A stretch of DNA of 64,000 bases from a virus (lineage: Duplodnaviria; Heunggongvirae; Uroviricota; Caudoviricetes): IMG/VR virus record IMGVR_UViG_3300042402_004854, positions 1 to 64,000 of that record, one strand, 5' to 3'. The notes below the pieces were generated by a model. That model had not been told where the DNA came from, searched no databases, and saw only the letters and a list, made by a program, of their open reading frames with translations. Positions within the stretch are counted from its first letter, which is position 1, and the number at the start of each line of letters is the position of its first letter. The position numbers and the translations under genes were made by a program. Below are positions 7,953 to 30,587 of the stretch, one piece after another.

Positions 7953-10131
7953 CAAACGCATACGTGGCCAACCAATCCCACTCATAACTTTTCTTCAGCG
8001 CCGCAAAGTCGCCCGCAACTGAGTCATAGTACTCTACTCCATCTTCGGCACCTTTGCGACTCCATTGCCCCGGTGTTGAATCAACAGTGAGCCATTTATT
8101 GAGTCTGTGTTCGCTTTCCACGTCAGGTAAACTGGCTTTTAATTTGAGCACTTCACGGAATGCAGTGCGCCAGCACATCCAGTCCGACTCATGATACATG
8201 GCTGTACCGCACACAATGGGCACAACTTCATGTGGTTGGTCTAGTGTGAAGTCCAAGCCCGCGCCTGTGTTCTCCAACACCAACTGTTTATTATACGCAA
8301 TCATGGCTTGGTGACCGTATACAAGTCCATTGATGGGATTGTGTGCATGAAAAATATAGTGCTTGGGTTGTTGCATGCGATCAGGTTGCCATGTCCAGTC
8401 AAAATCCGCAGTGACTTCTAGTTTGGCAAACACAGCAAAGAACCAAGGTGTTGTGCTTTGTCTAGCAGCCTCTTGATATGCTGCCACACGTCCATTGACA
8501 CCCGACACATGATGTATGCGATTCTTGTGGTCTTGTTCTGCTATGAATTTTAAATGTCTAAAGTAAAAGTCGGCATGTATTTCACCATTGCTGATAAACA
8601 CAATGTCCAAGGGCGGATCTTGTAGAGCACGTTGACTTCGATCTATATAAGGATAATCATACAACTGTGTCCGAATGTAAGGCACAGCGGTGCGTGGTAC
8701 TACAACTGTGCCAGCACCGTCACTGATGGGCACAATGGTTTTGGTTTGTTCACGCCACAGTGGCACAACTGCCATGATACCGGGGACATAATCGTGATTG
8801 GTAAATGTAGCAAGTGGACCTGCCCACTCAGTGTGTTTAATTGCTTCAACTTGACTGTCGTTGCTATGCACAATCACAGGCATGGGTCTACGTGGTACAC
8901 GTACATCAACAAAGTTTACATCATACCATTCCAACAGTTCTTTCTTTTCTGCTCTAGCAGCAAATGAGGGCACATGCATGAAGAATGTGTCACCAAACTT
9001 TTGATTGTTGGATCGAAACACATGCAACATTGTGGCCTGCCATTGTTCAGGATGCCAAGAGAAGTCAAAACCAGTGTAATCACAAATGCTGGAGCAAATC
9101 CAAACAAACTCATGTTGTGAACCTATGCTCTTGGCCAGGCGTATTAGTGTATCTCTATAGTTGTCAAAGTAACGCACAATCTTTGTGGTGTTTGGAATTT
9201 TGCCAGTACTGCCACACAAGTGATCTATTTCATATATGGCTGTGGCATTGCTGTCAACCCGCGCACGTATTTGATCCACGTACTTGATTTCTACAGCGCC
9301 AGGCACTGTATAGGTAGGGCCACCAGTGCGTTGGTGTTGCGTGGCAAACTGATATATGTACGGTGGATCACCTGGATCAGGCTGCCATGAAAAGTCCACA
9401 GTGGACTCATCTACGTTGGCAGGCACCGTCCAAGCAGTACGATCTTCCAGCAGTTCTGCTCTTGGCCAGTTCATGTACTTGCGTTCAGTTGCGCCCGGCA
9501 CATGATATTCTACTGTGGGCATTTTTTCTGCTGGCCACCATTGATTACCAAACACATACATGTAGGGTGGATCTCCTGGATCTGGGCACCAACTGCGATC
9601 CCACACACAGTCTACTAACGTATGCCAACGGTTAGCATGTTTTTCTGGCAGTCTTGCTTGAGGCGTGTCCATGTATTTGGTTTGCGTAGCACCTGGTACA
9701 TGATATTCCACTGTGGGCATTACATTACCCGGCCACCACTGATTGCCAAACACATAGTTGTAAGGCGGGTCATGCGGATGTGGAGCCCAAGACGTATCAA
9801 ACTCCGCAGCTTTTACCAAAAATTTGTAAGGCTTGGCATGTGGCCGATTGGGAATTGTCTGAGCATGAAAATGATAGTTATCTGTTGCACCCGATCTAGG
9901 CACAAGGTACGTGCCTGAATGATCATGCCATTGACTAGGCCATGCATGAGTAAATTCGCTTTGCCAAGGCACTGGTTCCCAAAGAAAATCAAAGCCAGTG
10001 TAATCTGCTAAGTATGTGATCCACCAGAAATATCTTGTGCGACTCAAACTCTGCGCATGTTCAAATGACTCCGCTGACTTTTCGTGTGCAAACACACCAG
10101 GTTTTTTTCCTGAATAAAATACATCAAACAT
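7924..10131 (-). CDS. hypothetical Trp-rich tandem-repeat protein (735 aa); possible glycan-binding or glycosyltransferase-associated function
   Basis: Long uninterrupted frame. Contains three to six copies of a ~45-aa module (D/F)FSWxPxPxDPPYxYxFGNQWWP...TVEYHVPGAxxxKYM. Only - strand gene inside the + strand block. Confidence 0.7.
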   Translation of the reverse strand: MFDVFYSGKKPGVFAHEKSAESFEHAQSLSRTRYFWWITYLADYTGFDFLWEPVPWQSEFTHAWPSQWHDHSGTYLVPRSGATDNYHFHAQTIPNRPHAKPYKFLVKAAEFDTSWAPHPHDPPYNYVFGNQWWPGNVMPTVEYHVPGATQTKYMDTPQARLPEKHANRWHTLVDCVWDRSWCPDPGDPPYMYVFGNQWWPAEKMPTVEYHVPGATERKYMNWPRAELLEDRTAWTVPANVDESTVDFSWQPDPGDPPYIYQFATQHQRTGGPTYTVPGAVEIKYVDQIRARVDSNATAIYEIDHLCGSTGKIPNTTKIVRYFDNYRDTLIRLAKSIGSQHEFVWICSSICDYTGFDFSWHPEQWQATMLHVFRSNNQKFGDTFFMHVPSFAARAEKKELLEWYDVNFVDVRVPRRPMPVIVHSNDSQVEAIKHTEWAGPLATFTNHDYVPGIMAVVPLWREQTKTIVPISDGAGTVVVPRTAVPYIRTQLYDYPYIDRSQRALQDPPLDIVFISNGEIHADFYFRHLKFIAEQDHKNRIHHVSGVNGRVAAYQEAARQSTTPWFFAVFAKLEVTADFDWTWQPDRMQQPKHYIFHAHNPINGLVYGHQAMIAYNKQLVLENTGAGLDFTLDQPHEVVPIVCGTAMYHESDWMCWRTAFREVLKLKASLPDVESEHRLNKWLTVDSTPGQWSRKGAEDGVEYYDSVAGDFAALKKSYEWDWLATYAFVKRSLTTSQ
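9262..9999 (-). repeat. in-frame tandem repeat region encoding W/P/Y-rich ~45-aa modules
   Basis: Protein positions ~45-290 of the 735-aa ORF. Copies DTSWAPHPHDPPYNYVFGNQWWPGNVMPTVEYHVPGATQTKYM, DRSWCPDPGDPPYMYVFGNQWWPAEKMPTVEYHVPGATERKYM and DFSWQPDPGDPPYIYQFATQ...TYTVPGAVEIKYV. DNA copies are diverged; compare 9540-9620 with 9700-9790. Confidence 0.6.
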
Positions 10132-11251
10132 GATTAGAATCGACGAAATTTACAACAATACATTTTGGCCTTGGCTTAAAGAGCATTATCCTGGTGTTAG
10201 AATGTTTTTTTGCGATCCATTTGGGAGAAGTGATCCGGATAGCATATTTAATTATGGCAATGATAAAATACACGAGTACAATTATATATTATTTTTTGAT
10301 CAAGAGCCAATAAATTTGGAAATTCATATACCAACTTTTGATACGGTATACGGAAGTAATCATGACATTTTTTGCATAAAAGACTGTACCTTAAATGGGT
10401 ATATTGTCACCAGTGAAAAAAACAGCGAGATTGTGAATTATATCTGCAAACGTTATAGATGGAAATCGTTGTATTATTTTTTCCATGGATGGGCTGCATT
10501 GGATTGGTATCGTGGATATGACCGAACTTTTTTGATCCAACCCTGGACCGAAAGAACTATTAACAAGACTTTTCTAGCACCCAATCGTATTGTGGCAGGA
10601 GAGCGTGAGCATAGATTAGAAATGCTGTATTGGATATTTCGACTGGGCATGACCGACAATCATGTGTCATGTCCTGCTGTGTGTCCTGCAGAAAATATTG
10701 CTATACTGGATGCTGTGCAACCTCTTAAAAGCAAGTATCCTGATATCGAAACAGTGTTTGCTGAACAGCCATTGCCACTAAACTTTGAGGGAGAAACCGA
10801 TCATCCCATGCATAGTTGTTGGCTCAGTTTGTTTGACCAAGCGGCTGAAAGTTTGTTATACTTGGTTACTGAAACTGTGGCCACAGGACGTAGACACCAT
10901 TTGACTGAAAAAACATTCAAACCCATTGCCTTGGGCATGCCTTTTGTGATGGTGGGCACACAAGGTAGTTTGAAGTATTTGCGCAGTTATGGTTTCCGAA
11001 CATTTGGTGACTTGTGGGATGAAAGTTATGATGACGAGCCAGATGATAGCCGACGCATAGAAAAAATTGCTCAACTATTAAAACAACTTGAAGGCAGTGA
11101 TCGTCAGGCCATATTTGACTCTGCACAAGAAATTATTGAACACAATTGGAATCACTTTTATGGCGGTGGGTTTGAAGCTGTACTGTGGCAAGAACTAAAG
11201 GGCATGCTAAATGAGCTTGAATTTGATAGCGGATCAAGTAGTACGGGGTAA
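10130..11251 (+). CDS. GT10-family (alpha-1,3-fucosyltransferase-like) glycosyltransferase paralogue 1
   Basis: HLTEKTFKPIALGMPFVMVG...GFRTFGDLWDESYD matches the FUT motif ITEKLWRN...PVVLG...FDE. Shares a paralogous C-terminal core with four other ORFs in the window. Confidence 0.6.
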   Translation: MIRIDEIYNNTFWPWLKEHYPGVRMFFCDPFGRSDPDSIFNYGNDKIHEYNYILFFDQEPINLEIHIPTFDTVYGSNHDIFCIKDCTLNGYIVTSEKNSEIVNYICKRYRWKSLYYFFHGWAALDWYRGYDRTFLIQPWTERTINKTFLAPNRIVAGEREHRLEMLYWIFRLGMTDNHVSCPAVCPAENIAILDAVQPLKSKYPDIETVFAEQPLPLNFEGETDHPMHSCWLSLFDQAAESLLYLVTETVATGRRHHLTEKTFKPIALGMPFVMVGTQGSLKYLRSYGFRTFGDLWDESYDDEPDDSRRIEKIAQLLKQLEGSDRQAIFDSAQEIIEHNWNHFYGGGFEAVLWQELKGMLNELEFDSGSSSTG

Positions 11252-12392
11252 AATATATCCTGCGCTGGCACGCCATCAAGCTGCACCTTACACACAGGCA
11301 TGGCGCGAGTTTGGTCAACATTGGCCGCATACCATTCCCATTCGACTACAAGAATATTGTGACCACCATAATATCAAAATCAACATCTATAATGTTCAAG
11401 ATCAGTTGCCCAACAACACATTTTATCCTGTTGGCTTAGGATTTTTTAATTTTGATATTGACTACTTTGAACTCATGAGCAGTGAGATCCGCCAGGCCTT
11501 GTGTGAACAGCGTGTGCGTGTGTTGTTTTACTATCATGAAGGTGACAATCCTGCACGTATCAAACTTCAACTAGACAAATTGGCCAGAAATCATCGATTG
11601 CCAACCGACTGTTATGTGTTTGTCAGTGCCAACACCGCTGCCAAACAGTTAAAGAACTTTGTGTACTTTACAGACTTTGAGATTTGGTATTATCAACGCA
11701 ATCGTGCTAGTCCTGCACTAAAAATACATTCGGAGCCGAGAGAGCGTGAATTTACTGTGCTTAACAGACTGCACAAATCATGGCGTGCATTGGCCATGGC
11801 AGATTTAAAAAGTCTTGAGTTGCTAGATAACTCATATTGGAGTTACTGTGAGTCTGGTGTGTTTGATGATGCAAAGTGCCCGATTGAAATTGATGCTATT
11901 GCCGGACTACGCACTGCTACTGAAGAGTTTTTAAAATCAGCCCCGTACATCAGTGATGAGTTGGATTTTGATCAACGCAATGATCACAGCACACTTGTGC
12001 CCAAGTACCATGTCAACAGTTATTGCAACATTGTGATGGAAACACATTTTGATGCTGATCAAAGTGGAGGTGCATTTTTAACTGAAAAAACATTCAAGCC
12101 TATCAAACACGGACAACTGTTTTTCATAGCGGGACCAGCAGGCAGTTTACAAGTGTTACGTGACTTGGGGTATCGTGTGTTTGATCATATACTGGACAAC
12201 AGTTATGATCTGGAAACTGATCACACACAACGTTGGCGGGCATTGACCCGAGCCATATACTTTGCTCAACCCGAACTGCCCCGACTGTTTGAACAGGCTC
12301 GAGCTGACATAGAACACAACCAACAGTTATTTCAAGCCACAAAGACCGATCGTTTAAATAGTTTGATCAAGGACATCAATGAACACCATTAA
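11211..12392 (+). CDS. GT10-family glycosyltransferase paralogue 2
   Basis: FLTEKTFKPIKHGQLFFIAGPAGSLQVLRDLGYRVFDHILDNSYD; overlaps the previous gene by 41 nt. Confidence 0.6.
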   Translation: MSLNLIADQVVRGKIYPALARHQAAPYTQAWREFGQHWPHTIPIRLQEYCDHHNIKINIYNVQDQLPNNTFYPVGLGFFNFDIDYFELMSSEIRQALCEQRVRVLFYYHEGDNPARIKLQLDKLARNHRLPTDCYVFVSANTAAKQLKNFVYFTDFEIWYYQRNRASPALKIHSEPREREFTVLNRLHKSWRALAMADLKSLELLDNSYWSYCESGVFDDAKCPIEIDAIAGLRTATEEFLKSAPYISDELDFDQRNDHSTLVPKYHVNSYCNIVMETHFDADQSGGAFLTEKTFKPIKHGQLFFIAGPAGSLQVLRDLGYRVFDHILDNSYDLETDHTQRWRALTRAIYFAQPELPRLFEQARADIEHNQQLFQATKTDRLNSLIKDINEHH

Positions 12393-13419
12393 CTCTTATA
12401 CCAGCTGGCAACCACTTGAAGAAGTTATTGTAGGTCGTGCTTACACCCCAGACTATTTTGATTTTATTGAAAATGCTCAAGTGCGCAATCAATTACAACA
12501 GATTCTCTCTGAGACTGAAGAAGACTTGGCCAACTTGCAAAAGACCATTGAGACTTATGGTGCAAAAGTACGCAGGCCCAAGCTACCCGACAAATACAAT
12601 TTTCAACGTGACCAAATGAAGGGCAACGGTGCACCACTGCCACCACTTACCCCAAGGGACTGGCAGATCACCCTGGGAGATAAACTGTTACGTGTGTTGT
12701 CTATTCCAGAATTAGATTCACTGTGCAACGAGTACGAAGCAGCACAACCTGGTAGTGTGATCAATCCACACGGTCCCACAGGCTGGGACGAAAACTGTAT
12801 CCTTAACCAAGCGTCAGCATCATGCATTGTACGTGTGGGACGTGATGTGTTCTTTGACAACTCAGATTTTTTACGTCCTGATCAGACTCGGTGGATCGTG
12901 GATCATGTGCTAGGACCAGAGTATCGCATACATGAAGCCATTACAGACGGTCATGGTGATGCGGTGTTTGCTATATTGAAACCTGGTGTGTTATTGAGTT
13001 CAAAACACGATGTTAACTTAGACTTAGCACGTGACTTTCCGGGATGGGATGTTTGCAAAATTTGGGATAGTAGTATCTGGGCCGCCATGGAAGTTGGCAA
13101 GTTCAAGTATGAACAAAGCCCGAGTGCTTGGTATGTACAAGGACAAACTCCCACACCAGAGTTTACAGACTTTGTGAACACTTATCTAACCAAGTGGACT
13201 GGATTTGTTGCTGAAACTGTGTTTGATGTCAACTGTTTGGTGCTGGATGAGTCACATGTTATCTTCTCAGCATACAACCGAGAAGTGTTTGACTACTGTC
13301 GCAAGCATAAGATTGAACCTATTATCTCAGAACTGCGTCACAGTTATTTCTGGGATGGTGGTATTAGTTGCTGTACGCAAGACATTCGACGCCGTGGCGG
13401 ACTTGAAACTTATCTCTAA
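12379..13419 (+). CDS. amidinotransferase (AGAT/StrB1-like) paralogue 2
   Basis: The C-terminus VLDESHVIFSAYNREVFDYCRKHKIEPIISELRHSYFWDGGISCCTQDIRRRGGLETYL aligns closely with the human AGAT C-terminus VLMLDEKRV...[24 protein letters not shown]. Confidence 0.8.
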   Translation: MNTINSYTSWQPLEEVIVGRAYTPDYFDFIENAQVRNQLQQILSETEEDLANLQKTIETYGAKVRRPKLPDKYNFQRDQMKGNGAPLPPLTPRDWQITLGDKLLRVLSIPELDSLCNEYEAAQPGSVINPHGPTGWDENCILNQASASCIVRVGRDVFFDNSDFLRPDQTRWIVDHVLGPEYRIHEAITDGHGDAVFAILKPGVLLSSKHDVNLDLARDFPGWDVCKIWDSSIWAAMEVGKFKYEQSPSAWYVQGQTPTPEFTDFVNTYLTKWTGFVAETVFDVNCLVLDESHVIFSAYNREVFDYCRKHKIEPIISELRHSYFWDGGISCCTQDIRRRGGLETYL

Positions 13420-14903
13420 CTGAAAACTTTTACACCATACAGTTTTTCAAACCGATCTGCATCTGCTCGATCGTTGACCATGGGCTCGCCACGTATGTTC
13501 AAACTGGTGTTCAGCAACATAGGACAACCAGTTATTGAATGCCAATACTCCAACAACTGTCTTATTCCTGATCCGCCCGCCTCCACCGTTTGTACTCTAC
13601 TGGTGCCATCAACATGACATATAGCAGGGTAAACGTCAGGTTGGCGACAACGAGCGACTGACTGCATATAATTGTGAGTATGCCAGCCAGGCTGCATGTC
13701 AAAGTAGTCATTAGCCAATTCAGCCAGTACCACAGGGGCGAAGGGTCTGAACTTTTGTCTGCGTTTGATTTCATTTACTCTGTCCTTGATTTCTGCACCA
13801 CGGGGGTCTGCAAGTAGGCTTCGGTTACCCAACGCTCTAGGACCGAATTCAGCACGGCCAGAGGCCACTCCAACAATGCCAGTGTCAAGTAGAGTACTGA
13901 CAATACGATCAACAGGATAAGGGCCAGGGATATTGTGACCAAGGTAAGCATTACGCCAATGCAACCTTTTGCCGTACGCAAGGGCAGCGGCTCCGAGGCT
14001 GCTTCCGGCATCGCCGGGGTTGGGCATGATCCAGATGTTTTCAAAGTATTTTCCTAGTCGTCTATTGGCCAAACAGTTGAGTGCAACGCCACCTTGATAC
14101 ACAAGATTTGTTGACCAGCCAAAATCTCTGGCCCGGCGCATGATATTACCAATCAAGCGTTCCAACATTCGTTGAGCAGCAGCGGCAATATCCACATGAT
14201 CAAGACCGCCCATGAAGGTGTCGCTGACTCCAGTGTGTAAGTTCTGTTTGAACTCTGCAGTATTTGGATCACTGATCAACACTGCTTCCATGAGATCATG
14301 ATAATGATCATCGCCATAAGCAGCCATACCCATGGTGATGTATTCTTCGTCTAGTGGGTGTAGGCCCACACGCTTAGTAATTGCACTATAAAAGAGACCC
14401 AGGCTGTGAGGGTATCGTTGTCCCCACAGTCGACGATATCTTGCTCGTCCTTGCTTGTCATACTCTGCTCCCCAGATTGTGATTGTGTCCCATTCACCTA
14501 TGGCATCGATTACCACAACTGTGGCCCGGTCGTATGGTGAAGTTTGAAAGCCACCAGCGGCATGTGAAAGATGATGATTGTAACTGTGATAGTGTTTGAT
14601 ATCCTGCCACCGGGCATGACCTATCTGCTGATGCACTATGCTTTTTACTCGTAACTTGTTCCACTCTATACCTTGGCCAGCATACAGTTGACGCAGTTGC
14701 TTGGCCCAAGGACGCTCATAATGTGCTACAGTATCAATAGGGTTGTAGTTTTCAAGTTCACGTATAAATGCACTGTCAAAGTCAGCGTCATTTTTGCGTT
14801 TGCTGTAGCGTTCTGCATGGCCGGCAAATAATATGTCGCCAGAGCGATTGATCACTGTGGCCGCGGCATCATGGAACCCAGCACTGATACCTAGTATGTT
14901 CAT
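13416..14903 (-). CDS. NodU/CmcH/TobZ-family O-carbamoyltransferase
   Basis: N-terminal MNILGISAGFHDAAATVI (Kae1/HypF-like carbamoyltransferase N-domain). C-terminal NTSLNIRGEPMVNDRADA motif. 495 aa. Confidence 0.85.
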   Translation of the reverse strand: MNILGISAGFHDAAATVINRSGDILFAGHAERYSKRKNDADFDSAFIRELENYNPIDTVAHYERPWAKQLRQLYAGQGIEWNKLRVKSIVHQQIGHARWQDIKHYHSYNHHLSHAAGGFQTSPYDRATVVVIDAIGEWDTITIWGAEYDKQGRARYRRLWGQRYPHSLGLFYSAITKRVGLHPLDEEYITMGMAAYGDDHYHDLMEAVLISDPNTAEFKQNLHTGVSDTFMGGLDHVDIAAAAQRMLERLIGNIMRRARDFGWSTNLVYQGGVALNCLANRRLGKYFENIWIMPNPGDAGSSLGAAALAYGKRLHWRNAYLGHNIPGPYPVDRIVSTLLDTGIVGVASGRAEFGPRALGNRSLLADPRGAEIKDRVNEIKRRQKFRPFAPVVLAELANDYFDMQPGWHTHNYMQSVARCRQPDVYPAICHVDGTSRVQTVEAGGSGIRQLLEYWHSITGCPMLLNTSLNIRGEPMVNDRADADRFEKLYGVKVFS

Positions 14904-19008: not shown

Positions 19009-19009
19009 G

Positions 19010-20925: not shown

Positions 20926-20949
20926 TTAAGCACTGTCAATTCAGAAGAT

Positions 20950-20981
20950 AGTACGCAAAATTTATCATGTGGAATATTCAT
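20950..20981 (-). repeat. 32-bp direct repeat copy 2 (encodes orphan MNIPHDKFCV fragment then stops)
   Basis: agtacgcaaaatttatcatgtggaatattcat. Its ATG overlaps the TAA of the B12-rSAM gene (TAATG), exactly as copy 1 abuts the stop of 20230..20925. Confidence 0.8.
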
Positions 20982-23997: not shown

Positions 23998-25321
23998 ACC
24001 ATTCTGCTAGATTAGGAAATGACACAGCAAAGTTTTTGTCTCTGCGTTGGTCGTACTGTGTGTAGAACTGTTTAAAGTCATTCAATAGTTTGGGCAATTC
24101 AAATGCTTCCGAGTGTGGAGTTTTTACCACGTCAAGATAATCAATCAGCCGTTGTACATGGTTTACTTCGTGTTCGTGCAAACAGGGATTTTCTCTATTG
24201 TGAAACAACCATGCTTCTAACTGCAAGCGATAACGATTGCGTAGGTGATCAGGCAATACTAGAGCACTTTGAAAACTGGGGAAACGTAAAATGTTCAAGG
24301 TAAAGTTGACTTGGTCCCGCCCGTAACGTTGCTTCAATGTCAACATCATGTTGAGATGATCCACAAGACTATCCAAACACACTGCATTGATAGTACACAT
24401 CACATGCACAGCACTGACAAATCGACCTTCCAACAAAAACAACACATTGTTGAGCCATTGATCATAATCCAAACCATCTCTAATATACTCTGCTTGTTTC
24501 CACGTGGCTTCCATTGAAGTATATAGATCCACCCGGGGCAATGTGGCAATTGCTGCGGCAAAGTCTTTGATCTTTTCCAACTCAATACCAAGATTTGAAT
24601 TGATGGCCAACTGGGTGTTACTGCGTCCTTGATTGGCTTTGAACCACTCAATCAGTTTCCAAGTATAGCCTGACATTAGTGGCTCGCCGCCGGTTATTCG
24701 GAGTTCTTGCAAGGTTCTGTGGAGGTCTCGTTCCCACCAGTCAAAGAAGGCGTCCACGTAAGGATTAGTCTCACCGAATTTATAAAGTTGACTACTATCA
24801 TGAGTGTGAGTAAAATGGTTCCTACCATCGCTAACCAGCCCGTTGTAGGGTCCATGCTTGCGTATATCATTGACCCAAGTGGAACTAAAAGCAGGATTGC
24901 AATAAGAACAAGCAAATTGACAAGTGCGATCGAAACTGATTTCCAGTGTTCTAAGATTGACATCATCTTGGATGGGAGTTTTAACTGCTTCATGTAGTGC
25001 CTTTATAGGATAAATTTTACTTTTGTACACACGGTCACTCACAGCGTCAGTGTGCATGTCTTCAATCTTCCAGCAGTATTCACAGCCTGCTGGACGTTCG
25101 CCGGCTAGCATTTGCTGCCGGTCCGCTTTCTTTTGATCAGTATTGTGCAACAGCCTAGAGTTGAGCCGGACTTTATCAATGTCTACCAAATGGGCTGGCG
25201 GGTGATGGCAACTTGTGGTCTGCCCACTTCCTAACCAAATGGTAGCATTGTACCATTTCGCTGCACAAAAACTCGGGGATACAGGATCTAACACCTGTTG
25301 TTTAAATTCTAAATCATTCAT
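23978..25321 (-). CDS. radical SAM enzyme, Cys-rich N-terminal extension (family member 4); start trimmed to Met41 of track ORF 23978..25441
   Basis: CQFACSYCNPAFSSTW. N-terminal FCAAKWYNATIWLGSGQTTSCHHPP...CEYCW. The ATG at 25321 abuts the stop of the GT10 gene at 25314; the longer track ORF would overlap it by 128 nt. Confidence 0.7.
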   Translation of the reverse strand: MNDLEFKQQVLDPVSPSFCAAKWYNATIWLGSGQTTSCHHPPAHLVDIDKVRLNSRLLHNTDQKKADRQQMLAGERPAGCEYCWKIEDMHTDAVSDRVYKSKIYPIKALHEAVKTPIQDDVNLRTLEISFDRTCQFACSYCNPAFSSTWVNDIRKHGPYNGLVSDGRNHFTHTHDSSQLYKFGETNPYVDAFFDWWERDLHRTLQELRITGGEPLMSGYTWKLIEWFKANQGRSNTQLAINSNLGIELEKIKDFAAAIATLPRVDLYTSMEATWKQAEYIRDGLDYDQWLNNVLFLLEGRFVSAVHVMCTINAVCLDSLVDHLNMMLTLKQRYGRDQVNFTLNILRFPSFQSALVLPDHLRNRYRLQLEAWLFHNRENPCLHEHEVNHVQRLIDYLDVVKTPHSEAFELPKLLNDFKQFYTQYDQRRDKNFAVSFPNLAEWYDSIQV

Positions 25322-26426
25322 TGATGTATTGGGCCAAACGTTGGGGGAGTTCTGCACGTTCGCGACGATTGTGTTCACGAAGTTGTTGATAGTTGTATTT
25401 ACAAACTGATCGGGCTGCCTCCAAGAATTCAGCAGCACCATTATAACATATATCTGCTACTGTGTCTACTATTCTATTGGCGCGGTCTGTGGGATCATCG
25501 ATCTGATCAAAACTTTCATCAATCAGTTTCCCAAATGTTTGGAATCCTGCTGAATGTAAATCTCTGTAGTATCCCGGGTTGGCTGCTGCCACAAACGGAT
25601 GCCCCATGATCATAGGCTTCCAAATTTTCTCTGTGCGGAATGTGTGTGGATAATCAAATATGGTTTCTGTTACCACTGAGAAGTATGTGTCAATATAGGG
25701 TGCAGGATTGATTTCAGCATCACCCCAGGTGTTGTTGAACAGTCGATGTTTTACAAATCCTGTGGGCACTGTGTCCATATTGGGCAGTGCGCGGTCAATT
25801 TCGTATTGACGAGGTAACAATCGCACAGGCTCAGCATTGCCAGTTTGCAAACGACTGCTCCAGGCCATTTCCACACGATCATTGAGATTGGTCCACAGCG
25901 CTCGATCCAACAACTGTCGATCACGCATGGCATCAATCAAGTACTTGCGATGTGGACGCAGCCGTCCATTTAGGAACAGGAAGTCATAAGGTTTGTTTTG
26001 TTTGTGATACACCTGTGGGTAAGACTCGTGCGCACGTAAGTTTTCCAAATACTCCACAATGTTGGAGAAGTAGCAGTCTGTTTTACAGTACTTCCAGCCT
26101 GGTTCCAAGTCACCTGATGTCAGCAACAAGATGTCACCCCGACGAACTTGTTCTTTAATGCGCAGGCGTGTGAGTTGCAACAATATGGTTTCACTGCCTT
26201 CTGCAGGATTTGAAAACACAATACGTCCAGGATATTGTTGTGCCCACTCTGTTATTTCTATCCAATTGTCTTTTAATATCACACGCCCAACAATGTAAAT
26301 ATTGTCTGGGTCAAGCACAACGTCTGACCATTGCCAAAAACTGCCATCCGCATGTGTCTTGAGTAAGTCCCATACTTCGGCCCACTCATCCACAATGATT
26401 TTACGATTGCCTAGCATGGTATGCAC
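25314..26426 (-). CDS. GT10-family glycosyltransferase paralogue 4
   Basis: FRTEKIWKPMIMGHPFVAAANPGYYRDLHSAGFQTFGKLIDESFDQ. Confidence 0.6.
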   Translation of the reverse strand: MHTMLGNRKIIVDEWAEVWDLLKTHADGSFWQWSDVVLDPDNIYIVGRVILKDNWIEITEWAQQYPGRIVFSNPAEGSETILLQLTRLRIKEQVRRGDILLLTSGDLEPGWKYCKTDCYFSNIVEYLENLRAHESYPQVYHKQNKPYDFLFLNGRLRPHRKYLIDAMRDRQLLDRALWTNLNDRVEMAWSSRLQTGNAEPVRLLPRQYEIDRALPNMDTVPTGFVKHRLFNNTWGDAEINPAPYIDTYFSVVTETIFDYPHTFRTEKIWKPMIMGHPFVAAANPGYYRDLHSAGFQTFGKLIDESFDQIDDPTDRANRIVDTVADICYNGAAEFLEAARSVCKYNYQQLREHNRRERAELPQRLAQYINE

Positions 26427-27801
26427 ACTCCTCCCACCACGACCGCATCTCTGGGAATGTCTTCAAAAAGTCTGTGCCACGACGTCGATCATGTTCACTG
26501 AAGAAACGATAGAAGTCTGCCTTTGTACGTGAGTGATCTGTCAACTGTGCAGATCGCATCCAGGCAATGTCACGGTCCAGTCTGTGCAGTTCATAATCTT
26601 TGAATCCTTTGAACGGTTCCGCTTCTGTTTCGATCTGTCGCACCATCCATGCCCACAGCCATTCCAGTTTCTCTGCATAACTTTCGGGCAAGATCTGTAG
26701 GCTTTGCCACGCAGGCTCACGCAACACCGGTGTGTCAAACCACACACGTTGATAGGTGTTGCTGTATACTTTTCTCAAGCCCAATATACCAGCAAACAGT
26801 TTATCTAAACTAGTTACACTGAGATTGTTCATAGTGACAATAAATGTAAGACTTGAGTAGTTGGGCACTTCGGTAAGGAATTGATTTACTCGGTCCCACA
26901 GCAAGTCAAAGTCTAACCCATACCGCATGTATTCTGCTTGCTCGCCCCAACCATCAAGACTCACATACTGCATGAAGTGTTCGATGCGTCCGTCACAGAT
27001 TTGTTTTACATAGCCCAAGTACTTCTGCCATGACTTCTCATCTACTGAAAAGTTGCTTGTGACATTCAAGTGCAACTTGGGACTGGGATTCTCCAACACA
27101 TAATCAAACACACGATACGTGTTCCGATCCAGCAGTGGCTCGCCACCGGTCATGCGGAAATGTTCTAGGTGAGGGTACAGGCTTGGCCACCAAGACCAGA
27201 AGGCCTCAACATAAGGGTTTGATTCTCGAACGGGAATAGCACGGCGACTGCCAGTGAAATGCTCAGGAGCATTATGAGGCACCAGGGTAGGATATGCTCC
27301 GTGTCTAGCGACTTCATCTGCCCATGCACTACTAAACTGAGGGCTGCAATAACTACACCGCAGATTGCAAACGTGATTAAAATTAACTTCAACATAACTG
27401 GGAATGACATTTTCCGCTCCTGTGCTATTTTTTATCTGTTCAAAATCCACTGCGGCCCAAGGTTCACCTGAACGGTAGTGCCGATCACTTAGTTTGCCTT
27501 CATCTTCCATGTTCCAGCAGTACTGGCATTCTGCAGGTTTCTCCCCGGCCAACATCATTCGGCGTTGTTGTTTTTTATACTCAGTGTTGTGCAATGCCGA
27601 AACATCTATGGCAATCTCTTCAGGGTTGATCGAGTGCAAGGGCGGATGATAGCATGAATTGTTCATGCCTGTGGTAAGATGTAGGCTAACCTGCCTCCAC
27701 TTGGCCAGGCACAGTGCAGTCCCTAGTTGCTGTTTCATCTGCTCAGCAGAGTTTAAAAACTTGCTTTTGCCGTCTACAGATTCGTTGCCCTTTTGTTGCA
27801 T
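26401..27801 (-). CDS. radical SAM enzyme, Cys-rich N-terminal extension (family member 5)
   Basis: CNLRCSYCSPQFSSAW. N-terminal LCLAKWRQVSLHLTTGMNNSCYHPP...CQYCW. Closest paralogue of member 4. Confidence 0.75.
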   Translation of the reverse strand: MQQKGNESVDGKSKFLNSAEQMKQQLGTALCLAKWRQVSLHLTTGMNNSCYHPPLHSINPEEIAIDVSALHNTEYKKQQRRMMLAGEKPAECQYCWNMEDEGKLSDRHYRSGEPWAAVDFEQIKNSTGAENVIPSYVEVNFNHVCNLRCSYCSPQFSSAWADEVARHGAYPTLVPHNAPEHFTGSRRAIPVRESNPYVEAFWSWWPSLYPHLEHFRMTGGEPLLDRNTYRVFDYVLENPSPKLHLNVTSNFSVDEKSWQKYLGYVKQICDGRIEHFMQYVSLDGWGEQAEYMRYGLDFDLLWDRVNQFLTEVPNYSSLTFIVTMNNLSVTSLDKLFAGILGLRKVYSNTYQRVWFDTPVLREPAWQSLQILPESYAEKLEWLWAWMVRQIETEAEPFKGFKDYELHRLDRDIAWMRSAQLTDHSRTKADFYRFFSEHDRRRGTDFLKTFPEMRSWWEECAYHARQS

Positions 27802-27802: not shown

Positions 27803-29620
27803 TTATATTTTGTTGTTAATAAGTTTAATTTTATTTTTCAATAACCCTTTTCGTCGATTCATATAAAAATCAAATTCTTCAGTTAATGAAGCTACAGGAA
27901 TTACTATGTATTTGTGTTGCGCATCTTGCCAAGTATCAATATCAAAATCTAAATCTAACATTACAGGGTACTGATGATCTTTATCTACTATCGAGTGTTG
28001 CTGCAATGCTTTTATGCCCGGGTCAATATCTGTTAGTTCTTCTAACACCTGTTGCGACAACTTGTATACATGTTTTCGATTTTCATAAACAAATAGTCCA
28101 CCTACAGATTGTAACCCATGACCGCCGCGGCTGTGATTTTCAAAATCCAACATCTTTCCGGTAGTTAGGTAATGTTGCACAACGTTTTTAATTTGTGCGA
28201 GGTACAACTGGAACGGTTCAGAGTTGTTTATTTTGTTAAACAGATTATCATAAAACGTCTTATAAGAAATATTTTTTTTGTATCTAGCGTACTTGGATAG
28301 GTACTGTGTGTATCCAACAATATGAAAATGCAAAATCATCCAAGCGTACATAAATCCTTCTACAATATCGTTTGTAGACATGGTATTTGTGGCGCATATT
28401 AATTCAATGCTTTCGTCAGTAATACCTTTATAATCATTAGCATTAGAAAAGCCCGAGTAATCACTGGCGTTGATTGTTAATATCCCGTATTTTTTTCTGC
28501 TGTGTTCTTGTGCTAGCTCACTGTTTTCTAGTATCTGGGCAAACCATATATCAATTGATTTATGTTGTCCAAGTTCTAGTAATTCAGTAAGTCCTCTTTT
28601 CCATGTTTCTAGTGTTTCTAGCGGTAGCCCTAAAATTACTTCTGTATAGGTACCAACATCGGTTTTGTCACTTATCTCCATTAGTTTGGCAATATTGTTT
28701 ACGTCAAGATTATCTCTCTTGATAGCTGTTAGGGTGTCGGGATTCATGCTCTGAACACTTACGGTAATGCCTCTACTGTACGGGCCTATAATTTTTGCAA
28801 TTTCAAAAACTTCGTCAGTAGAGTTTTTAGCGTACTGTATATTAATTGCATCTACCCTGCTACGGTCTGCAACAGATCTAATCATTCGAGCTATTTCTAA
28901 ATCACGTTGTTTAAAAATGCCAAAATTTGCATCAGCTAAAAAAAGAAAGCTAACTGGATTATTAACTGCCCATTCTAGATCTGCTTGAACATGCTCTAGA
29001 CTGAACTTTTTAATTTTACTATATGTTACCCCGCCCCAATCACAAAATGTACAAGCATACGGGCATCCACGGTTGGTTTCAAAAGTCATGCTCCATAATA
29101 CGTCAGGATTGTCAGCAACAATAGTATTAAATACTCCACTGGTATAAGGGCTAGGTATATCTAACTTCTGTAGACGTTGTTTTTGACTCAACATCTGAAC
29201 AGGTTGATTTGCTAAAATTGCTCGCAGAGTTTCGACAAATTTTTCTTCGCCTTCGCCGCATACAATACTATCTACAAACTTGTACTTTATATGACGACCG
29301 CTTACGTGCGGTCCGCCAAATTGGATTATACATTGTGGCCAGCGTTTTTTAATCATTTCTGCAAGAATCAAGCAATATTGAGCATTCCAAACATAAACAC
29401 TGAATCCACAGTATACTGGGTCCTCGATACGATCTAATATGTCCGCTGGATCTTCTCGTCGAAATATTAGATCTGCCAGTACAAAATTATTTGTTATATC
29501 ATCAAACTGACTAGCATAACTCCATAAGCACCCTGAACTGTACGGTAGCCAGTAGTTTGGTTCTTTCCTAAAATCCACAGAGTACTGCGGCTGGAACAAA
29601 TAGATATTTTTTTTATGCAT
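27803..29620 (-). CDS. large radical SAM enzyme, probable B12-binding (class B) type, paralogue B
   Basis: 605 aa; NRGCPYACTFCDWGGV (CxxxCxxC); same architecture as 20981..22741. Confidence 0.6.
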   Translation of the reverse strand: MHKKNIYLFQPQYSVDFRKEPNYWLPYSSGCLWSYASQFDDITNNFVLADLIFRREDPADILDRIEDPVYCGFSVYVWNAQYCLILAEMIKKRWPQCIIQFGGPHVSGRHIKYKFVDSIVCGEGEEKFVETLRAILANQPVQMLSQKQRLQKLDIPSPYTSGVFNTIVADNPDVLWSMTFETNRGCPYACTFCDWGGVTYSKIKKFSLEHVQADLEWAVNNPVSFLFLADANFGIFKQRDLEIARMIRSVADRSRVDAINIQYAKNSTDEVFEIAKIIGPYSRGITVSVQSMNPDTLTAIKRDNLDVNNIAKLMEISDKTDVGTYTEVILGLPLETLETWKRGLTELLELGQHKSIDIWFAQILENSELAQEHSRKKYGILTINASDYSGFSNANDYKGITDESIELICATNTMSTNDIVEGFMYAWMILHFHIVGYTQYLSKYARYKKNISYKTFYDNLFNKINNSEPFQLYLAQIKNVVQHYLTTGKMLDFENHSRGGHGLQSVGGLFVYENRKHVYKLSQQVLEELTDIDPGIKALQQHSIVDKDHQYPVMLDLDFDIDTWQDAQHKYIVIPVASLTEEFDFYMNRRKGLLKNKIKLINNKI

Positions 29621-29621
29621 G

Positions 29622-30587
29622 TTATTCGATGGGATAGATTTCTGTTTTATACTCTTGTGACTTTAGTAGATTGTAATTGTGGTCCAACACATACTGCATA
29701 TCCCAATACATTTCTTCTAGCTGCTTGTTAGATTTTTTGGATAATTGATCAATCACTGCTAGTATTTTTATATATCGATCTTTTCCTTCGTAGCCATCGT
29801 AATCCTCGGACCAAAAGTCGTTGAATGTTTTAAACCCTTGTTGGCGTAGGTAACAAAGATAGTCCCTAGACGCAAATATAACAAACGGTTTTTTAAGCCA
29901 CATTGGTCGAGCTGTTTTTTCTGTTGGATAGAATGTTTTTCCTGCTACATGACTTTCAGACACTATATCAACAAAAATATCACGGTACATTGAGATTCCG
30001 TTGTCAATTTCGTAGTCGTACCATCCGCGATTCTCAATTGTGTTAACATCATTTTGGTCGTACGCAAGCAACGGCATGTGCGGTAACATAGTAGAGACTT
30101 CTCCAATACTTTCCATTCTAAGCATTGCTACCTTGTCAAATTCGTACAGTTGCAGCCGGTCAATGGTTGTGTCATAACTAAAATGTATCACACTCTGCTG
30201 TTGGTAATGGTTAAACAGATATGCACCAATGCCTAATCTACTTGCAGTGGGTCTATGGTAAAACGCCAAAAATGTTTTTGCACCTGTCCAGTCATGTAAG
30301 CTAGGGTGAATATTAGGTTGGTGTGCTAACCAACGATTGTTTTTGTTAACAATGATGTTGTACTTACTGTGTTGCTCTAGTTGATTCTCTGTGTATATCC
30401 TTACACTTGCAAACTCAAAATTATCCAGTAACTGATATATTCCCAAGGTCTCGAGGCATATTGCTTCAGGATTTATTATTAACGAAATACGACAATGCTG
30501 ATTACGTACTAGATAGTTAGTCAGCTCTTGAAAGTTCCAAAGTTTATTATTGGTTCCAGTGATTACAAATTTTTGAGTTTTTTCCAT
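29622..30587 (-). CDS. GT10-family glycosyltransferase paralogue 5 (most divergent)
   Basis: VSESHVAGKTFYPTEKTARPMWLKKPFVIFASRDYLCYLRQQGFKTFNDFWSEDYD. Confidence 0.55.
   Translation of the reverse strand: MEKTQKFVITGTNNKLWNFQELTNYLVRNQHCRISLIINPEAICLETLGIYQLLDNFEFASVRIYTENQLEQHSKYNIIVNKNNRWLAHQPNIHPSLHDWTGAKTFLAFYHRPTASRLGIGAYLFNHYQQQSVIHFSYDTTIDRLQLYEFDKVAMLRMESIGEVSTMLPHMPLLAYDQNDVNTIENRGWYDYEIDNGISMYRDIFVDIVSESHVAGKTFYPTEKTARPMWLKKPFVIFASRDYLCYLRQQGFKTFNDFWSEDYDGYEGKDRYIKILAVIDQLSKKSNKQLEEMYWDMQYVLDHNYNLLKSQEYKTEIYPIE

What the first reader, a model, noticed from the sequence alone, without database searches (positions are those of the whole stretch)
10130..30587. Five-fold expansion of GT10 (alpha-1,3-fucosyltransferase-like) genes
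ORFs 10130, 11211, 18073, 25314 and 29622 all carry the (V/S)E(T/S)...TEKxxKP...P(F/L)(V/I)xxG...GFxTF...DESYD core. This matches the eukaryotic/Helicobacter FUT motif FENS...ITEKLWRN...PVV.G...FDE. GT10 enzymes are rare in viruses. Five diverged copies, several directly paired with rSAM genes, indicate stepwise elongation of a branched deoxyhexose-containing glycan and repeated cassette duplication.
Basis: partly seen in the sequence, partly recalled or inferred. Interest (0 to 1): 0.6.

Follow-up and report, generated by a model that had tools for sequence, protein, structure and literature searches.

The report
Conserved phage glycosyltransferase–radical SAM module
Five old, diverged copies of an unannotated sugar-transferase-like enzyme that distantly resembles fucosyltransferases sit with five radical-SAM enzymes in a gene block shared by many uncultured large phages, and the block probably builds an elaborate glycan whose target is still unknown.

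Summary
The five ORFs are true paralogs (19-28% identity, pairwise E down to 1e-19), share the stated C-terminal motifs, and there is no sixth copy.

Two AlphaFold models (pLDDT 96-97) show a GT-B glycosyltransferase fold. Profile-profile comparison aligns the family's Arg, V-x-E-[TS] and TEK motifs with R195, E239 and E249/K250 of Helicobacter FucT (P about 2e-4; 200 shuffles never reach the real score). A GT10 HMM also ranks family members above decoys.

However, none of 94 members scanned matches Pfam Glyco_transf_10. Whole-structure ranking does not single out GT10. No GDP-fucose pathway is recognisable. I read this as a GT10-like sister family, not as fucosyltransferases.

The "expansion" is not specific to this phage. 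The five copies are five ancient orthologous groups inside a syntenic module found on dozens of viral contigs. The module has 5 GT10-like genes, 5 N-terminal-twitch radical SAM genes, a carbamoyltransferase and three unknowns. The GTs evolve about twice as fast as their partners. No protein in the module has a membrane segment.

The most likely role is stepwise assembly of a tailored glycoconjugate in the cytoplasm, possibly on virion proteins. Donor and acceptor are unknown.

The parts
10130..11251 (+). GT10-like GT-B paralog, positional group E, 373 aa. N-domain Glu at E59; VTET at 246; TEKTFKP at 259; DESYD at 297.
   Evidence: Orthologs of 72-80% identity are abundant. A natural fusion with the next gene exists (P0238).
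11211..12392 (+). GT10-like GT-B paralog, positional group D, 393 aa. E110; VMET at 275; TEKTFKP at 291; DNSYD at 329.
18073..19008 (-). GT10-like GT-B paralog, positional group C, 311 aa. E80, R135, E190, E206-K207, D247, R255, N282. This copy was modelled.
25314..26426 (-). GT10-like GT-B paralog, positional group B, 370 aa (367 aa if it starts at the ATG at 26417). E76; VTET at 252; TEKIWKP at 265; DESFD at 303. This copy was modelled.
29622..30587 (-). GT10-like GT-B paralog, positional group A, 321 aa. This is the most diverged copy. E41; VSES at 209; TEKTARP at 222; SEDYD at 260.
16799..18076 (-). Radical SAM enzyme with an N-terminal twitch domain (NCBIfam NF033640). Part of the module core.
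   Evidence: 270 bits against a cut-off of 170. Pfam Radical_SAM. Orthologs have a median identity of 74%.
19010..20233 (-). N-terminal-twitch radical SAM enzyme. Part of the module core.
   Evidence: 345 bits against a cut-off of 170..
22735..23997 (-). N-terminal-twitch radical SAM paralog. Part of the module core.
   Evidence: Pfam SPASM (N-terminal) plus Radical_SAM. Paralogous to 19010 at E 6e-43. Synteny.
23978..25441 (-). N-terminal-twitch radical SAM paralog. Part of the module core. It probably ends at about 25321 (447 aa).
26401..27801 (-). N-terminal-twitch radical SAM paralog. Part of the module core.
   Evidence: Paralogous to 23978 at E 5e-69.
15781..16806 (-). Conserved module protein of unknown fold, 341 aa.
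   Evidence: No Pfam or NCBIfam hit. Present in 37 loci. Always lies between rSAM16799 and the carbamoyltransferase.
13416..14903 (-). NodU/CmcH-type carbamoyltransferase. Part of the module core.
   Evidence: Pfam Carbam_trans_N and Carbam_trans_C, E 6e-36 and 6e-48. Present in 36 loci.
31487..32425 (-). Conserved module protein of 312 aa. It is homologous to the C-terminus of the 735-aa protein and contains a DGD motif, so it is a possible GT-A-like transferase. That reading is my own, from the sequence.
   Evidence: median ortholog identity 72%.
7924..10131 (-). Conserved module protein of 735 aa. It has three W-x-PDPxDPPY-x-Y-x-F repeats, and its C-terminus is related to ORF 31487.
   Evidence: No Pfam hit.
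12379..13419 (+). Frequent module member of 346 aa, paralogous to 5845-6864. Its C-terminal motif looks amidinotransferase-like. That reading is mine and is not supported by an HMM.
   Evidence: Paralogy at E 4e-36. Present in 14 loci. phrog_25854.
20981..22741 (-). B12-binding radical SAM enzyme (methyltransferase-type). An accessory insertion specific to this lineage.
   Evidence: Found in only 1 locus.
27803..29620 (-). B12-binding radical SAM enzyme, KedN5-like C-methyltransferase type. Accessory.
   Evidence: Found in 0 other loci.
14997..15686 (-). Class I SAM methyltransferase. Accessory.
   Evidence: Found in 1 locus.
30563..31486 (-). SDR-type NDP-sugar epimerase/dehydratase. Accessory. 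No equivalog assignment.
4884..7952 (+). SDR epimerase/dehydratase (4884-5852), amidinotransferase-like paralog (5845-6864) and DegT/PseC-type sugar aminotransferase (6849-7952). These look like an amino-sugar supply arm.
   Evidence: DegT and SDR lie next to the module in other loci.

Best explanation
The five ORFs are five ancient paralogs of a very large, unannotated family of soluble, acidic GT-B fold enzymes. So far the family has been seen mainly on viral contigs.

They are most likely inverting, nucleotide-sugar-dependent glycosyltransferases that are distant relatives of CAZy family GT10. The conserved C-terminal domain keeps the GT10 donor-site residues: an Arg at the start of the first C-domain helix, the Glu of the F-E-N strand, and the T-E-K helix cap. 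A Glu just after a strand of the N-domain, in the position pattern of the GT10 catalytic base, is conserved. The N-terminal domain is different in each paralog, which implies a different acceptor for each.

The five copies do not work alone. They are fixed components of a conserved syntenic module: u31487, GT, rSAM, GT, rSAM, rSAM, rSAM, GT, rSAM, u15781, carbamoyltransferase, (amidinotransferase-like), GT, GT, u7924, then aminotransferase/SDR.

I infer that this module assembles a tailored oligosaccharide or glycoconjugate step by step in the cytoplasm of the infected cell. Each GT would add one sugar. The N-terminal-twitch radical SAM enzymes, the carbamoyltransferase and lineage-specific extras (B12-rSAM C-methylases, a methyltransferase, SDRs) would modify it. 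The module lies beside baseplate and fibre genes, so the most likely acceptor is a virion protein.

What is shown: paralogy, fold, motif correspondence, synteny, orthology and absence of membrane segments. What is inferred: transferase activity, inverting mechanism, stepwise logic and acceptor. The donor sugar is unknown.
For: Paralogy and exactly five copies.

Link to GT10:
- hhalign of family profiles against a profile of 124 PF00852-annotated C-domains gives P 0.008 (A2) and 2.9e-4 / 1.8e-4 (A4). R135 aligns with R195, E190 with E239, and E206-K207 with E249-K250.
- The reversed template scores 12.4. Two hundred column shuffles average 11.9 (sd 2.8, maximum 25.5), against 34.4 for the real template.
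- A GT10 C-domain HMM puts family members in 16/26/40 of the top 20/50/100 of 1,241 sequences (2.5/6/12 expected). A GT4 control gives 3/5/13.
- The best Foldseek hits are GT47 and GT10.

Conservation pattern typical of a GT: E190, E206, K207, G234, D247, R255 and N282 are invariant, and R135 is present in 88 of 90 diverse members. The N-domain is variable except for E80, which is Glu in 76 of 90.

Module:
- Identical gene order on 12 of 12 multi-copy loci inspected.
- Of 39 loci of at least 16 kb, 37 have N-twitch rSAM genes, 33 have three or more, and 33 have the carbamoyltransferase.
- 79 of 183 GT copies abut a same-strand rSAM gene.
- The same module appears around a 33%-identical subfamily.

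Ancient orthologous groups: the nearest neighbour from another locus belongs to the same positional class in 91 of 97 cases.

The two adjacent GTs act together: a natural 738-aa fusion, P0238, joins them in the same order.

Soluble pathway: no protein of the island has a convincing transmembrane segment; the only window above threshold is a single marginal one in rSAM 23978.

Cellular relative in a glycan locus: a Methylocystis plasmid protein (hhalign probability 99.9%) lies next to GT4, another GT, methyltransferase and epimerase genes.

Location: baseplate wedge, hub and virion structural genes start a few kb beyond the island, at 38.8 kb and from 55.9 kb.
Against: - No biochemical evidence exists for any member of the family.
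- No Pfam, NCBIfam, PHROG or PDB-sequence match at any threshold tried.
- hhalign probability is only 5-40%. The shuffle control does not exclude signal shared by all Rossmann-like GT-B C-domains. The only non-GT10 control was a single GT4 sequence, not a profile.
- The Asn of the GT10 F-E-N motif is Thr or Ser here.
- I could not obtain residue-level structural superpositions, so the equivalence of the N-domain Glu with HpFucT E95 rests on a sequence and secondary-structure pattern only.
- The acceptor assignment (virion protein) rests on gene neighbourhood and on the absence of membrane or export genes.
Confidence: 0.6

Rival explanations
1. They are genuine GT10 alpha-1,3/4-fucosyltransferases that use GDP-L-fucose, or a related GDP-6-deoxyhexose, to build a fucosylated branched glycan.
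For: The TEK, Arg and Glu correspondence with GT10. A cellular homolog on a Methylocystis plasmid lies about 10 kb from an annotated GDP-L-fucose synthase.
Against: PF00852 is not matched by any of 94 sequences. No GDP-mannose dehydratase or GDP-fucose synthase equivalog in the window passes its cut-off; the best scores are 81 and 65 bits against a cut-off of 500. The Asn of F-E-N is replaced. In the Methylocystis locus a transposase gene lies just upstream of the homolog, and a stretch with no listed genes separates the homolog from the fucose synthase gene. Five separate fucosyl additions in one conserved pathway would be unusual.
Confidence: 0.1
2. They are DNA glycosyltransferases like T4 beta- and alpha-glucosyltransferase, and the module hypermodifies phage DNA bases to evade host nucleases.
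Confidence: 0.07
3. The module is a small-molecule pathway, aminoglycoside- or nucleoside-antibiotic-like. The GTs would glycosylate a pseudo-oligosaccharide scaffold that the phage uses against competitors or to manipulate the host.
For: The enzyme set echoes aminoglycoside biosynthesis as I know it: a DegT-type aminotransferase, an amidinotransferase-like pair, a TobZ/NodU-type carbamoyltransferase, twitch-domain rSAM enzymes, B12-rSAM C-methylases with a weak AprD4-family hit, and SDRs. All are soluble. A cyanophage paper labels a similar trio "antibiotic synthesis genes" (PMC12801897).
Against: The same enzyme families also decorate O-antigen, capsule and flagellin sugars. No resistance, export or scaffold-forming enzyme (for example an inositol or 2-deoxy-scyllo-inosose synthase) was recognised. 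In a fixed small-molecule pathway I would expect the GTs to be as conserved as the rSAM enzymes, but they evolve about twice as fast. The module sits among virion genes.
Confidence: 0.13
4. The module alters the host cell surface (LPS, capsule or S-layer glycan) to block superinfection, as proposed for glycosyltransferases in pelagimyophage host-recognition clusters.
For: PMC7029224 describes GT and radical SAM cassettes in the hypervariable tail-fibre region of T4-like marine phages and proposes O-chain modification. The cellular homolog lies in a polysaccharide-type locus.
Against: No polyprenyl-phosphate transferase, flippase, polymerase or any membrane protein is present in the island. Building five linkages on a host-specific lipid-linked acceptor is hard to reconcile with a module conserved across very different phages.
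Confidence: 0.07
5. The proteins have a GT-B fold but are not sugar transferases. They might, for example, transfer a phospho-alcohol as TagF does, or act on the nucleotide rather than transferring the sugar.
For: No family assignment exists. TagF, an epimerase and a selenosugar synthase appear among weaker structural hits. Extra invariant residues (D247, R255, N282) have no GT10 counterpart that I could map.
Against: The specifically conserved residues coincide with the GT10 nucleotide-sugar site. The strongest structural neighbours are all glycosyltransferases.
Confidence: 0.03

Closest known systems
CAZy GT10 / Pfam PF00852 alpha-1,3/4-fucosyltransferases (H. pylori FucT 2NZW/5ZOI, human FUT9 8D0O, plant FUT11/FUT13)
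   Different: No PF00852 match in 94 sequences. Thr or Ser replaces the Asn of F-E-N. The family has an extra invariant block, G-F-x-T-F...D-E-S-Y-D...R...H-N, with no GT10 equivalent. There are no membrane anchors or C-terminal heptad repeats. The donor is unknown. The family occurs on viral contigs in a module with radical SAM enzymes.
T4 beta-glucosyltransferase (GT63) and alpha-glucosyltransferase (GT72)
GT47 exostosin domain (EXT1/EXT2)
   Same: Best Foldseek E-values, 4e-4 to 1.5e-3. It is an inverting GT-B with a broadly similar C-domain layout.
Glycosyltransferase and radical SAM cassettes in the host-recognition cluster of T4-like pelagimyophages and cyanomyophages (PMC7029224; PMC5332604; PMC12801897)
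   Same: Large aquatic myoviruses with many radical SAM, GT, aminotransferase and amidinotransferase genes near tail-fibre genes. One environmental genome has 12 radical SAM genes.
   Different: Those papers describe gene categories (GT8, "radical SAM") only. They do not describe this family, its GT10 likeness or the fixed 5+5 synteny. I did not test whether their genomes carry the same module.
Virus-encoded virion glycosylation systems (mycobacteriophage capsid/tail glycosylation; chlorovirus capsid glycans), cited from my own knowledge and via PMC12801897 ref. 61
   Same: Cytoplasmic, virus-encoded soluble GTs that build glycans on structural proteins without host export machinery.
   Different: Those systems use GT-A or GT2/GT4-type enzymes and involve no radical SAM enzymes. 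No virion glycan has been shown here.

Membership tests
GT10 (Pfam PF00852 Glyco_transf_10) | Sequence match to the family HMM at or near the gathering threshold | tested here: not met
   The five ORFs give no hit at E<=10. The 90 sequences of alignment A4 (ORF 18073 plus 89 diverse relatives) give no hit at E<=1. True GT10 fragments all carry PF00852.
GT10 | GT-B fold (two Rossmann-like domains) | tested here: met
GT10 | C-terminal donor-site motif: Arg (HpFucT R195), F-E-N (E239, N240), Y-x-T-E-K (E249, K250) | tested here: inconclusive
   Arg, Glu and T-E-K align in register (hhalign P 0.008 to 2e-4; shuffle maximum 25.5 against 34.4) and are invariant or nearly so. The Asn is Thr or Ser, and hhalign probability is only 5-40%.
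GT10 | GT10 structures are the closest structural neighbours | tested here: inconclusive
   Ranks 1, 3, 8 and 10 for ORF 18073, but ranks 7, 9, 11 and 12 for ORF 25314. The margins are about 1 Z unit or less. Foldseek ranks GT47 first and GT10 next.
GT10 | N-domain catalytic Glu (HpFucT E95) | tested here: inconclusive
   All five paralogs have a Glu one to four residues after a hydrophobic N-domain segment; in the two modelled copies that segment is a strand, and in ORF 25314 the Glu lies at its end. This position is Glu in 76 of 90 diverse members. No residue-level superposition was available.
GT10 | GDP-L-fucose donor and alpha-1,3/4 linkage | not testable with these tools
   The only indirect test was negative: no GDP-fucose pathway equivalog in the window passes its cut-off.
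GT-B glycosyltransferase superfamily | Two-domain Rossmann-like architecture with a conserved C-terminal nucleotide-sugar domain and a variable N-terminal acceptor domain | tested here: met
   Conservation is concentrated in the C-domain.
NCBIfam NF033640, N-terminal twitch radical SAM (the partner genes) | HMM score above the curated cut-off of 170 bits | tested here: met
   ORF 16799 scores 270 bits and ORF 19010 scores 345 bits. The other three were assigned by paralogy and Pfam N-terminal SPASM plus Radical_SAM matches. They were not scanned against NCBIfam.
Phage DNA glucosyltransferases (GT63/GT72) | DNA as acceptor, with a companion base hydroxymethylase | tested here: inconclusive
   The structural similarity is as good as to GT10. 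The proteins are acidic and no hydroxymethylase is present in the 64-kb window. The rest of the genome was not seen.

The most novel reading that the evidence does not exclude
The conserved block is an undescribed, widespread phage pathway. It comprises five N-terminal-twitch radical SAM enzymes, five GT10-like transferases, a carbamoyltransferase and three proteins of unknown fold. In this reading, radical chemistry on sugars alternates with glycosyl transfer to build a heavily tailored, rapidly diversifying glycan on virion proteins. The GT10-like proteins would found a new CAZy-level family with more than 10,000 sequence clusters.
Probability: 0.3. Interest if true: 0.8.

Novelty: new variant of a known kind. 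Interest (0 to 1): 0.6.

Why it matters
The family is very large. It has 13,447 clusters at 50% identity with E<=1e-3, and at least 496 IMG/VR loci. Yet it has no Pfam, NCBIfam or PHROG model, no solved relative detectable by sequence, and no member found in about 50,000 deposited phage genomes by tblastn with three of the paralogs.

Recognising it as a GT10-like GT-B transferase annotates thousands of "hypothetical proteins". It also exposes a conserved phage module that couples five radical SAM enzymes to five glycosyltransferases. This gives two fields a concrete, testable system:
- Phage glycobiology, where the open question is what large aquatic phages glycosylate and why.
- Radical SAM enzymology, where the N-terminal-twitch subfamily has, as far as I could find, no assigned chemistry.

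The contrast between fast-evolving GTs and slowly evolving rSAM partners suggests selection on glycan structure. That would be relevant to host recognition or to evasion of defence.

Tried and rejected
- Pfam, PHROGs and NCBIfam scans of the five ORFs gave nothing relevant.
- PDB sequence searches with family profiles A1 and A4 at E<=10 gave nothing.
- The AFDB50 fold library was unavailable.
- Megablast of the region against deposited phages gave no match.
- tblastn of ORFs 18073, 10130 and 25314 against deposited phages gave no match.
- tblastn of the rSAM gene against plasmids gave no match.
- The GTDB genome scan used one narrow peptide pattern and returned only four MAG contigs. Two of these carry the whole module and are probably mis-binned phage, so it says little about how common the family is in cells.
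- A Pfam scan of ten longer family members, looking for informative domain fusions, found none. The long forms are GT-GT tandems.
- Literature searches for the module, the rSAM subfamily accession, and jumbo-phage GT/rSAM combinations found no description of it.
- "Cassette duplication" was rejected. The rSAM similarity tree is ((23978,26401),((19010,22735),16799)), while the GT similarities are star-like with no congruent pairs.
- "Lineage-specific five-fold expansion" was rejected on synteny and nearest-neighbour analysis.
- A midpoint-rooted NJ tree recovered only two of the five positional classes as clean clades. I therefore rely on the nearest-neighbour statistic instead.

Full report
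**1. Observation**

The window is a 64-kb piece of a large myovirus. Its baseplate wedge protein (55901-59335) is 33-34% identical to those of Rak2/121Q-, Atu_ph07- and SCTP-2-type jumbo phages. Orthologs of its genes sit on metagenomic contigs of up to about 354 kb.

Their translations carry the stated motifs. In a MAFFT alignment the other four copies are 25-28% identical to ORF 10130. All pairs except 11211/29622 are individually significant, with BLASTP E from 1e-6 to 5e-17 and phmmer E down to 1e-19. A profile of the family finds exactly these five among all six-frame ORFs; the next best score is E 0.11.

One detail needs correcting. ORF 25314 probably starts at the ATG three codons in. 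The apparent overlap with the upstream rSAM gene is a longest-ORF artefact, because the genes are called at 367 and 447 aa on another contig that encodes the identical ORF-18073 protein.

**2. Sequence-level classification**

No curated library recognises the family:
- Pfam at E<=10, PHROGs and NCBIfam give nothing relevant for the five ORFs.
- A Pfam scan of alignment A4 (ORF 18073 plus 89 diverse relatives, 19-42% identical to it) at E<=1 returns only scattered noise and no PF00852.
- Family profiles find no PDB chain at E<=10.

The family is nevertheless very large. An exhaustive profile search of 1.84 billion cluster representatives gives 13,447 hits at E<=1e-3 and 10,258 at E<=1e-10. The word-indexed search returned more than 5,000 hits. 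None of the 237 listed in the two searches has a Pfam domain, and those that carry a name at all are called "hypothetical protein".

**3. Fold**

ORF 18073 was modelled with a 142-sequence alignment and ORF 25314 with a 114-sequence alignment. Mean pLDDT is 96.9 and 96.4, with pTM 0.93 for both.

- Foldseek ranks the GT47 domain of EXT2 first (E 4e-4), then FUT13 and FUT9.

The GT-B fold is therefore secure. Structure alone does not single out GT10.

**4. Is the TEK motif coincidental?**

I recovered real GT10 sequences by querying the PDB with a recalled H. pylori FucT sequence and reading the deposited chains from the output. I then collected 120 PF00852-annotated C-domain fragments.

hhalign of the family against this GT10 profile improves as the profiles deepen:

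| Comparison | P | Aligned region |
|---|---|---|
| A2 vs four GT10 sequences | 0.076 | TEK helix only |
| A2 vs 124-sequence GT10 profile | 0.008 | 108 columns |
| A4 (more diverse) vs 124-sequence GT10 profile | 2.9e-4 / 1.8e-4 | 68 columns |

The register is the same each time:
- R135 aligns with R195.
- E190 of V-V-E-T aligns with E239 of F-E-N.
- T205-E206-K207 aligns with T248-E249-K250.
- P217...G222 aligns with the P-I-Y-W-G strand.

From my own recollection of the HpFucT literature, R195, N240, E249 and K250 are the GDP-fucose-binding residues and E95 is the proposed base.

Controls:
- The reversed template scores 12.4.
- Two hundred column shuffles average 11.9 (sd 2.8, maximum 25.5), against 34.4 for the real template.
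- An HMM of the GT10 C-domain, run without filters on 154 family members mixed with 1,087 other ORFs from the same loci, places family members in 16, 26 and 40 of the top 20, 50 and 100. Chance would give 2.5, 6 and 12. The best E-value in that set is 1.6e-4.
- A GT4 protein used the same way shows no enrichment (3, 5, 13). The HpFucT C-domain alone gives 1, 15 and 36, with a family member as its top hit.

The same residues are the most conserved in the family. E190, E206, K207, G234, D247, R255 and N282 are invariant in 90 diverse members, and R135 is present in 88 of 90.

In the N-domain the only well-kept residue is a Glu shortly after a hydrophobic, strand-like segment. It is E80 in ORF 18073, is Glu in 76 of 90 members, and is present in all five paralogs. 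This is the pattern of the GT10 base ("RVFYTGE95"), but I could not superpose residues.

I conclude that the motif match reflects distant homology with GT10, or at least a shared donor-site design. The family fails the operational test for GT10 membership. It also has its own invariant block, G-F-x-T-F...D-E-S-Y-D...R...H-N, and Thr or Ser in place of the F-E-N asparagine.

**5. Context: a conserved module, not a local expansion**

Pfam and NCBIfam annotate the neighbours as follows:
- Five paralogous radical SAM enzymes with an N-terminal twitch/SPASM-like domain. Two were scanned against NF033640 and score 270 and 345 bits against a cut-off of 170.
- Two B12-binding rSAM enzymes and an rSAM-SPASM protein.
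- A NodU/CmcH carbamoyltransferase.
- A class I methyltransferase.
- Two SDR sugar epimerase/dehydratases.
- A DegT/PseC-type aminotransferase.

In the 87 loci held at that point, up to six family copies lie within 10 kb either side of the matched gene.

Labelling every ORF of these loci by its best window match shows the same order on all 12 multi-copy loci inspected:

u31487 | GT(29622) | rSAM26401 | GT(25314) | rSAM23978 | rSAM22735 | rSAM19010 | GT(18073) | rSAM16799 | u15781 | carbamoyltransferase | (u12379) | GT(11211) | GT(10130) | u7924 | DegT | SDR

Further figures:
- Of 39 loci of at least 16 kb, 37 contain N-twitch rSAM genes, 33 have three or more, and 33 have the carbamoyltransferase.
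- 79 of 183 GT copies directly abut a same-strand rSAM gene.
- A subfamily only 33% identical to ORF 18073 sits in the same kind of block.

I also classified GT copies by their flanking genes rather than by similarity. The nearest neighbour from a different locus belongs to the same positional class in 91 of 97 cases, and each window paralog's three nearest relatives are its positional orthologs. The five copies are therefore five old orthologous groups. The duplications predate the divergence of phages whose rSAM orthologs are now 50-74% identical.

The GTs evolve faster than their partners:

| Gene class | Median ortholog identity |
|---|---|
| GT10-like paralogs | 35-53% |
| N-twitch rSAM enzymes | 50-74% |
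| Carbamoyltransferase | 66% |
| u31487 | 72% |

The adjacent pair 10130/11211 occurs fused, in the same order, as a 738-aa protein (P0238). Many other tandem fusions of 700-1,000 aa exist.

The rSAM similarities form the tree ((23978,26401),((19010,22735),16799)), with no matching GT pairs. This argues against duplication of GT-rSAM cassettes.

The B12-rSAM genes, the methyltransferase, SDR 30563 and ORF 20230 are absent or rare in other loci. They are lineage-specific add-ons.

**6. Donor and acceptor**

No GDP-fucose or other defined NDP-sugar pathway can be named. All SDR and aminotransferase hits are far below equivalog cut-offs; GDP-fucose synthase scores 81 and 65 bits against 500, and PseC scores 129 against 423.

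No protein between 2.8 and 41 kb has a convincing transmembrane segment, and the five GTs have none at all. There is therefore no lipid-carrier transferase, flippase or polymerase, and assembly must take place on a soluble acceptor.

The family is acidic. The five copies have pI 5.0-6.1, the median of 149 relatives is 5.8, and under 1% exceed pI 8. This weighs weakly against DNA as the acceptor, even though T4 BGT and AGT are strong structural neighbours.

The module lies near virion genes. A virion structural protein is encoded at 38841-40568, a 4,843-aa ORF at 41370-55901, and baseplate wedge and hub genes from 55.9 kb.

One cellular member was found. WP_281932125.1 on a Methylocystis iwaonis megaplasmid (hhalign probability 99.9%) lies beside GT4, another GT, methyltransferase and epimerase genes, and about 10 kb from a GDP-L-fucose synthase, with a transposase gene just upstream of it. 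This supports a glycan-building role. It supports fucose only weakly.

**7. Literature**

Three papers bear on the module:
- Pelagimyophage genomes carry glycosyltransferases and "radical SAM cassettes" in a hypervariable host-recognition cluster beside tail fibres. The authors propose host O-chain modification (PMC7029224).
- A T4-like marine viral genome with 12 radical SAM genes has been reported (PMC5332604).
- Cyanophage S-SCSM2R has an aminotransferase, rSAM and amidinotransferase trio that its authors call "antibiotic synthesis genes" (PMC12801897).

None of these describes this GT family, its GT10 likeness or the fixed 5+5 synteny. Six searches found no other account. tblastn with three paralogs finds no member in 50,697 deposited phage genomes. 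Distant N-twitch rSAM homologs do occur in KVP40-like Vibrio phages and in RsoM2USA.

**8. Verdict**

The finding is real and more interesting than a local gene expansion, but the label is only partly right. These are GT-B, probably inverting, nucleotide-sugar transferases of a new GT10-like family. They are fixed parts of a widespread phage module with five N-twitch radical SAM enzymes.

Rough confidence for each element:

| Claim | Confidence |
|---|---|
| GT-B fold | about 0.97 |
| Glycosyl transfer | about 0.75 |
| Distant GT10 kinship | about 0.6 |
| Fucosyltransferase activity | about 0.1 |

The stepwise glycan-assembly reading and the virion-protein acceptor are inferences. The chemistry of the radical SAM partners and the identity of the product remain open.

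Noticed in passing
window 41370-55901 (-): A single 4,843-aa ORF lies directly upstream of the baseplate wedge gene. Its only Pfam signal is a short CBM_5_12 carbohydrate-binding match at residues 3960-3981. It is presumably a giant baseplate or fibre protein, and it could be a candidate acceptor or partner for the glycan.
   Followed up: partly
window 5845-6864 (+) and 12379-13419 (+): These are two paralogs (E 4e-36) with no Pfam or NCBIfam hit. They end in ...FWDGG(W/I)(H/S)C(F/C)T(L/Q)DI.R, which looks to me like the catalytic Cys motif of amidinotransferases. A cyanophage paper annotates an "inosamine amidinotransferase" next to an aminotransferase and an rSAM gene.
   Followed up: partly
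window 7924-10131 (-) and 31487-32425 (-): The 735-aa module protein contains three repeats of W-x-PDPxDPPY-x-Y-x-F...PT-x-(E)Y-x-VPGA. Its C-terminal part is homologous to ORF 31487 (E 9e-9). ORF 31487 contains an I-D-G-D-N motif, so it may be a GT-A-like transferase. Neither protein has a family match.
   Followed up: no
window 16799-27801; loci L004-L087: The five N-terminal-twitch radical SAM paralogs are far more conserved between phages (median 50-74% identity) than the five GT paralogs (35-53%). ORF 19010 also gives a weak hit on its radical SAM core to prokaryotic viperin (E 8e-8).
   Followed up: partly
window 34870-37579 (-): A PfkB-family sugar kinase at 34870-35625 looks RfaE/HldE-like to my eye. 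Next to it is a pair of unannotated paralogs, 35968-36771 and 36722-37579 (E 4e-7). These accompany the module in the jumbo-phage loci. They may be further sugar-activation or transfer genes.
   Followed up: no
window 37882-40568 (-): A 316-aa ORF extremely rich in Thr, Ala and Gly (37882-38832) lies beside a virion structural protein (38841-40568). The structural protein has a sub-threshold "Chlorovirus glycoprotein repeat" match (E 5e-4). Both sit at the edge of the glycan island and are possible O-glycosylation targets.
   Followed up: no
L004 and L006 (Haliscomenobacter sp. MAG EUL_031, contigs of 148 and 183 kb): Both contigs of this bacterial MAG carry the complete phage module in the same gene order. 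They are probably jumbo-phage contigs binned with a bacterial genome, or possibly a hint to the host.
   Followed up: no
L088 (Methylocystis iwaonis plasmid pSS37A-Re-1, 189762-191057): This is a cellular member of the family (431 aa, "hypothetical protein"). It lies in a polysaccharide-type locus interrupted by a transposase gene, and no N-twitch rSAM gene is annotated nearby. So the GT family can occur outside the phage module.
   Followed up: partly
window 843-1637 (+) and 3867-4547 (+): An SPFH/Band-7 protein and a ThyX flavin-dependent thymidylate synthase lie upstream of the glycan island.
   Followed up: no
window 32400-33113 (-) and 20230-20925 (-): ORF 32400 begins ...LLVNGCSFSRG..., which resembles the SGNH/GDSL hydrolase block I. 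A GDSL-like gene occupies a similar place in a related module. ORF 20230 has no match and is found in only 3 other loci.
   Followed up: no
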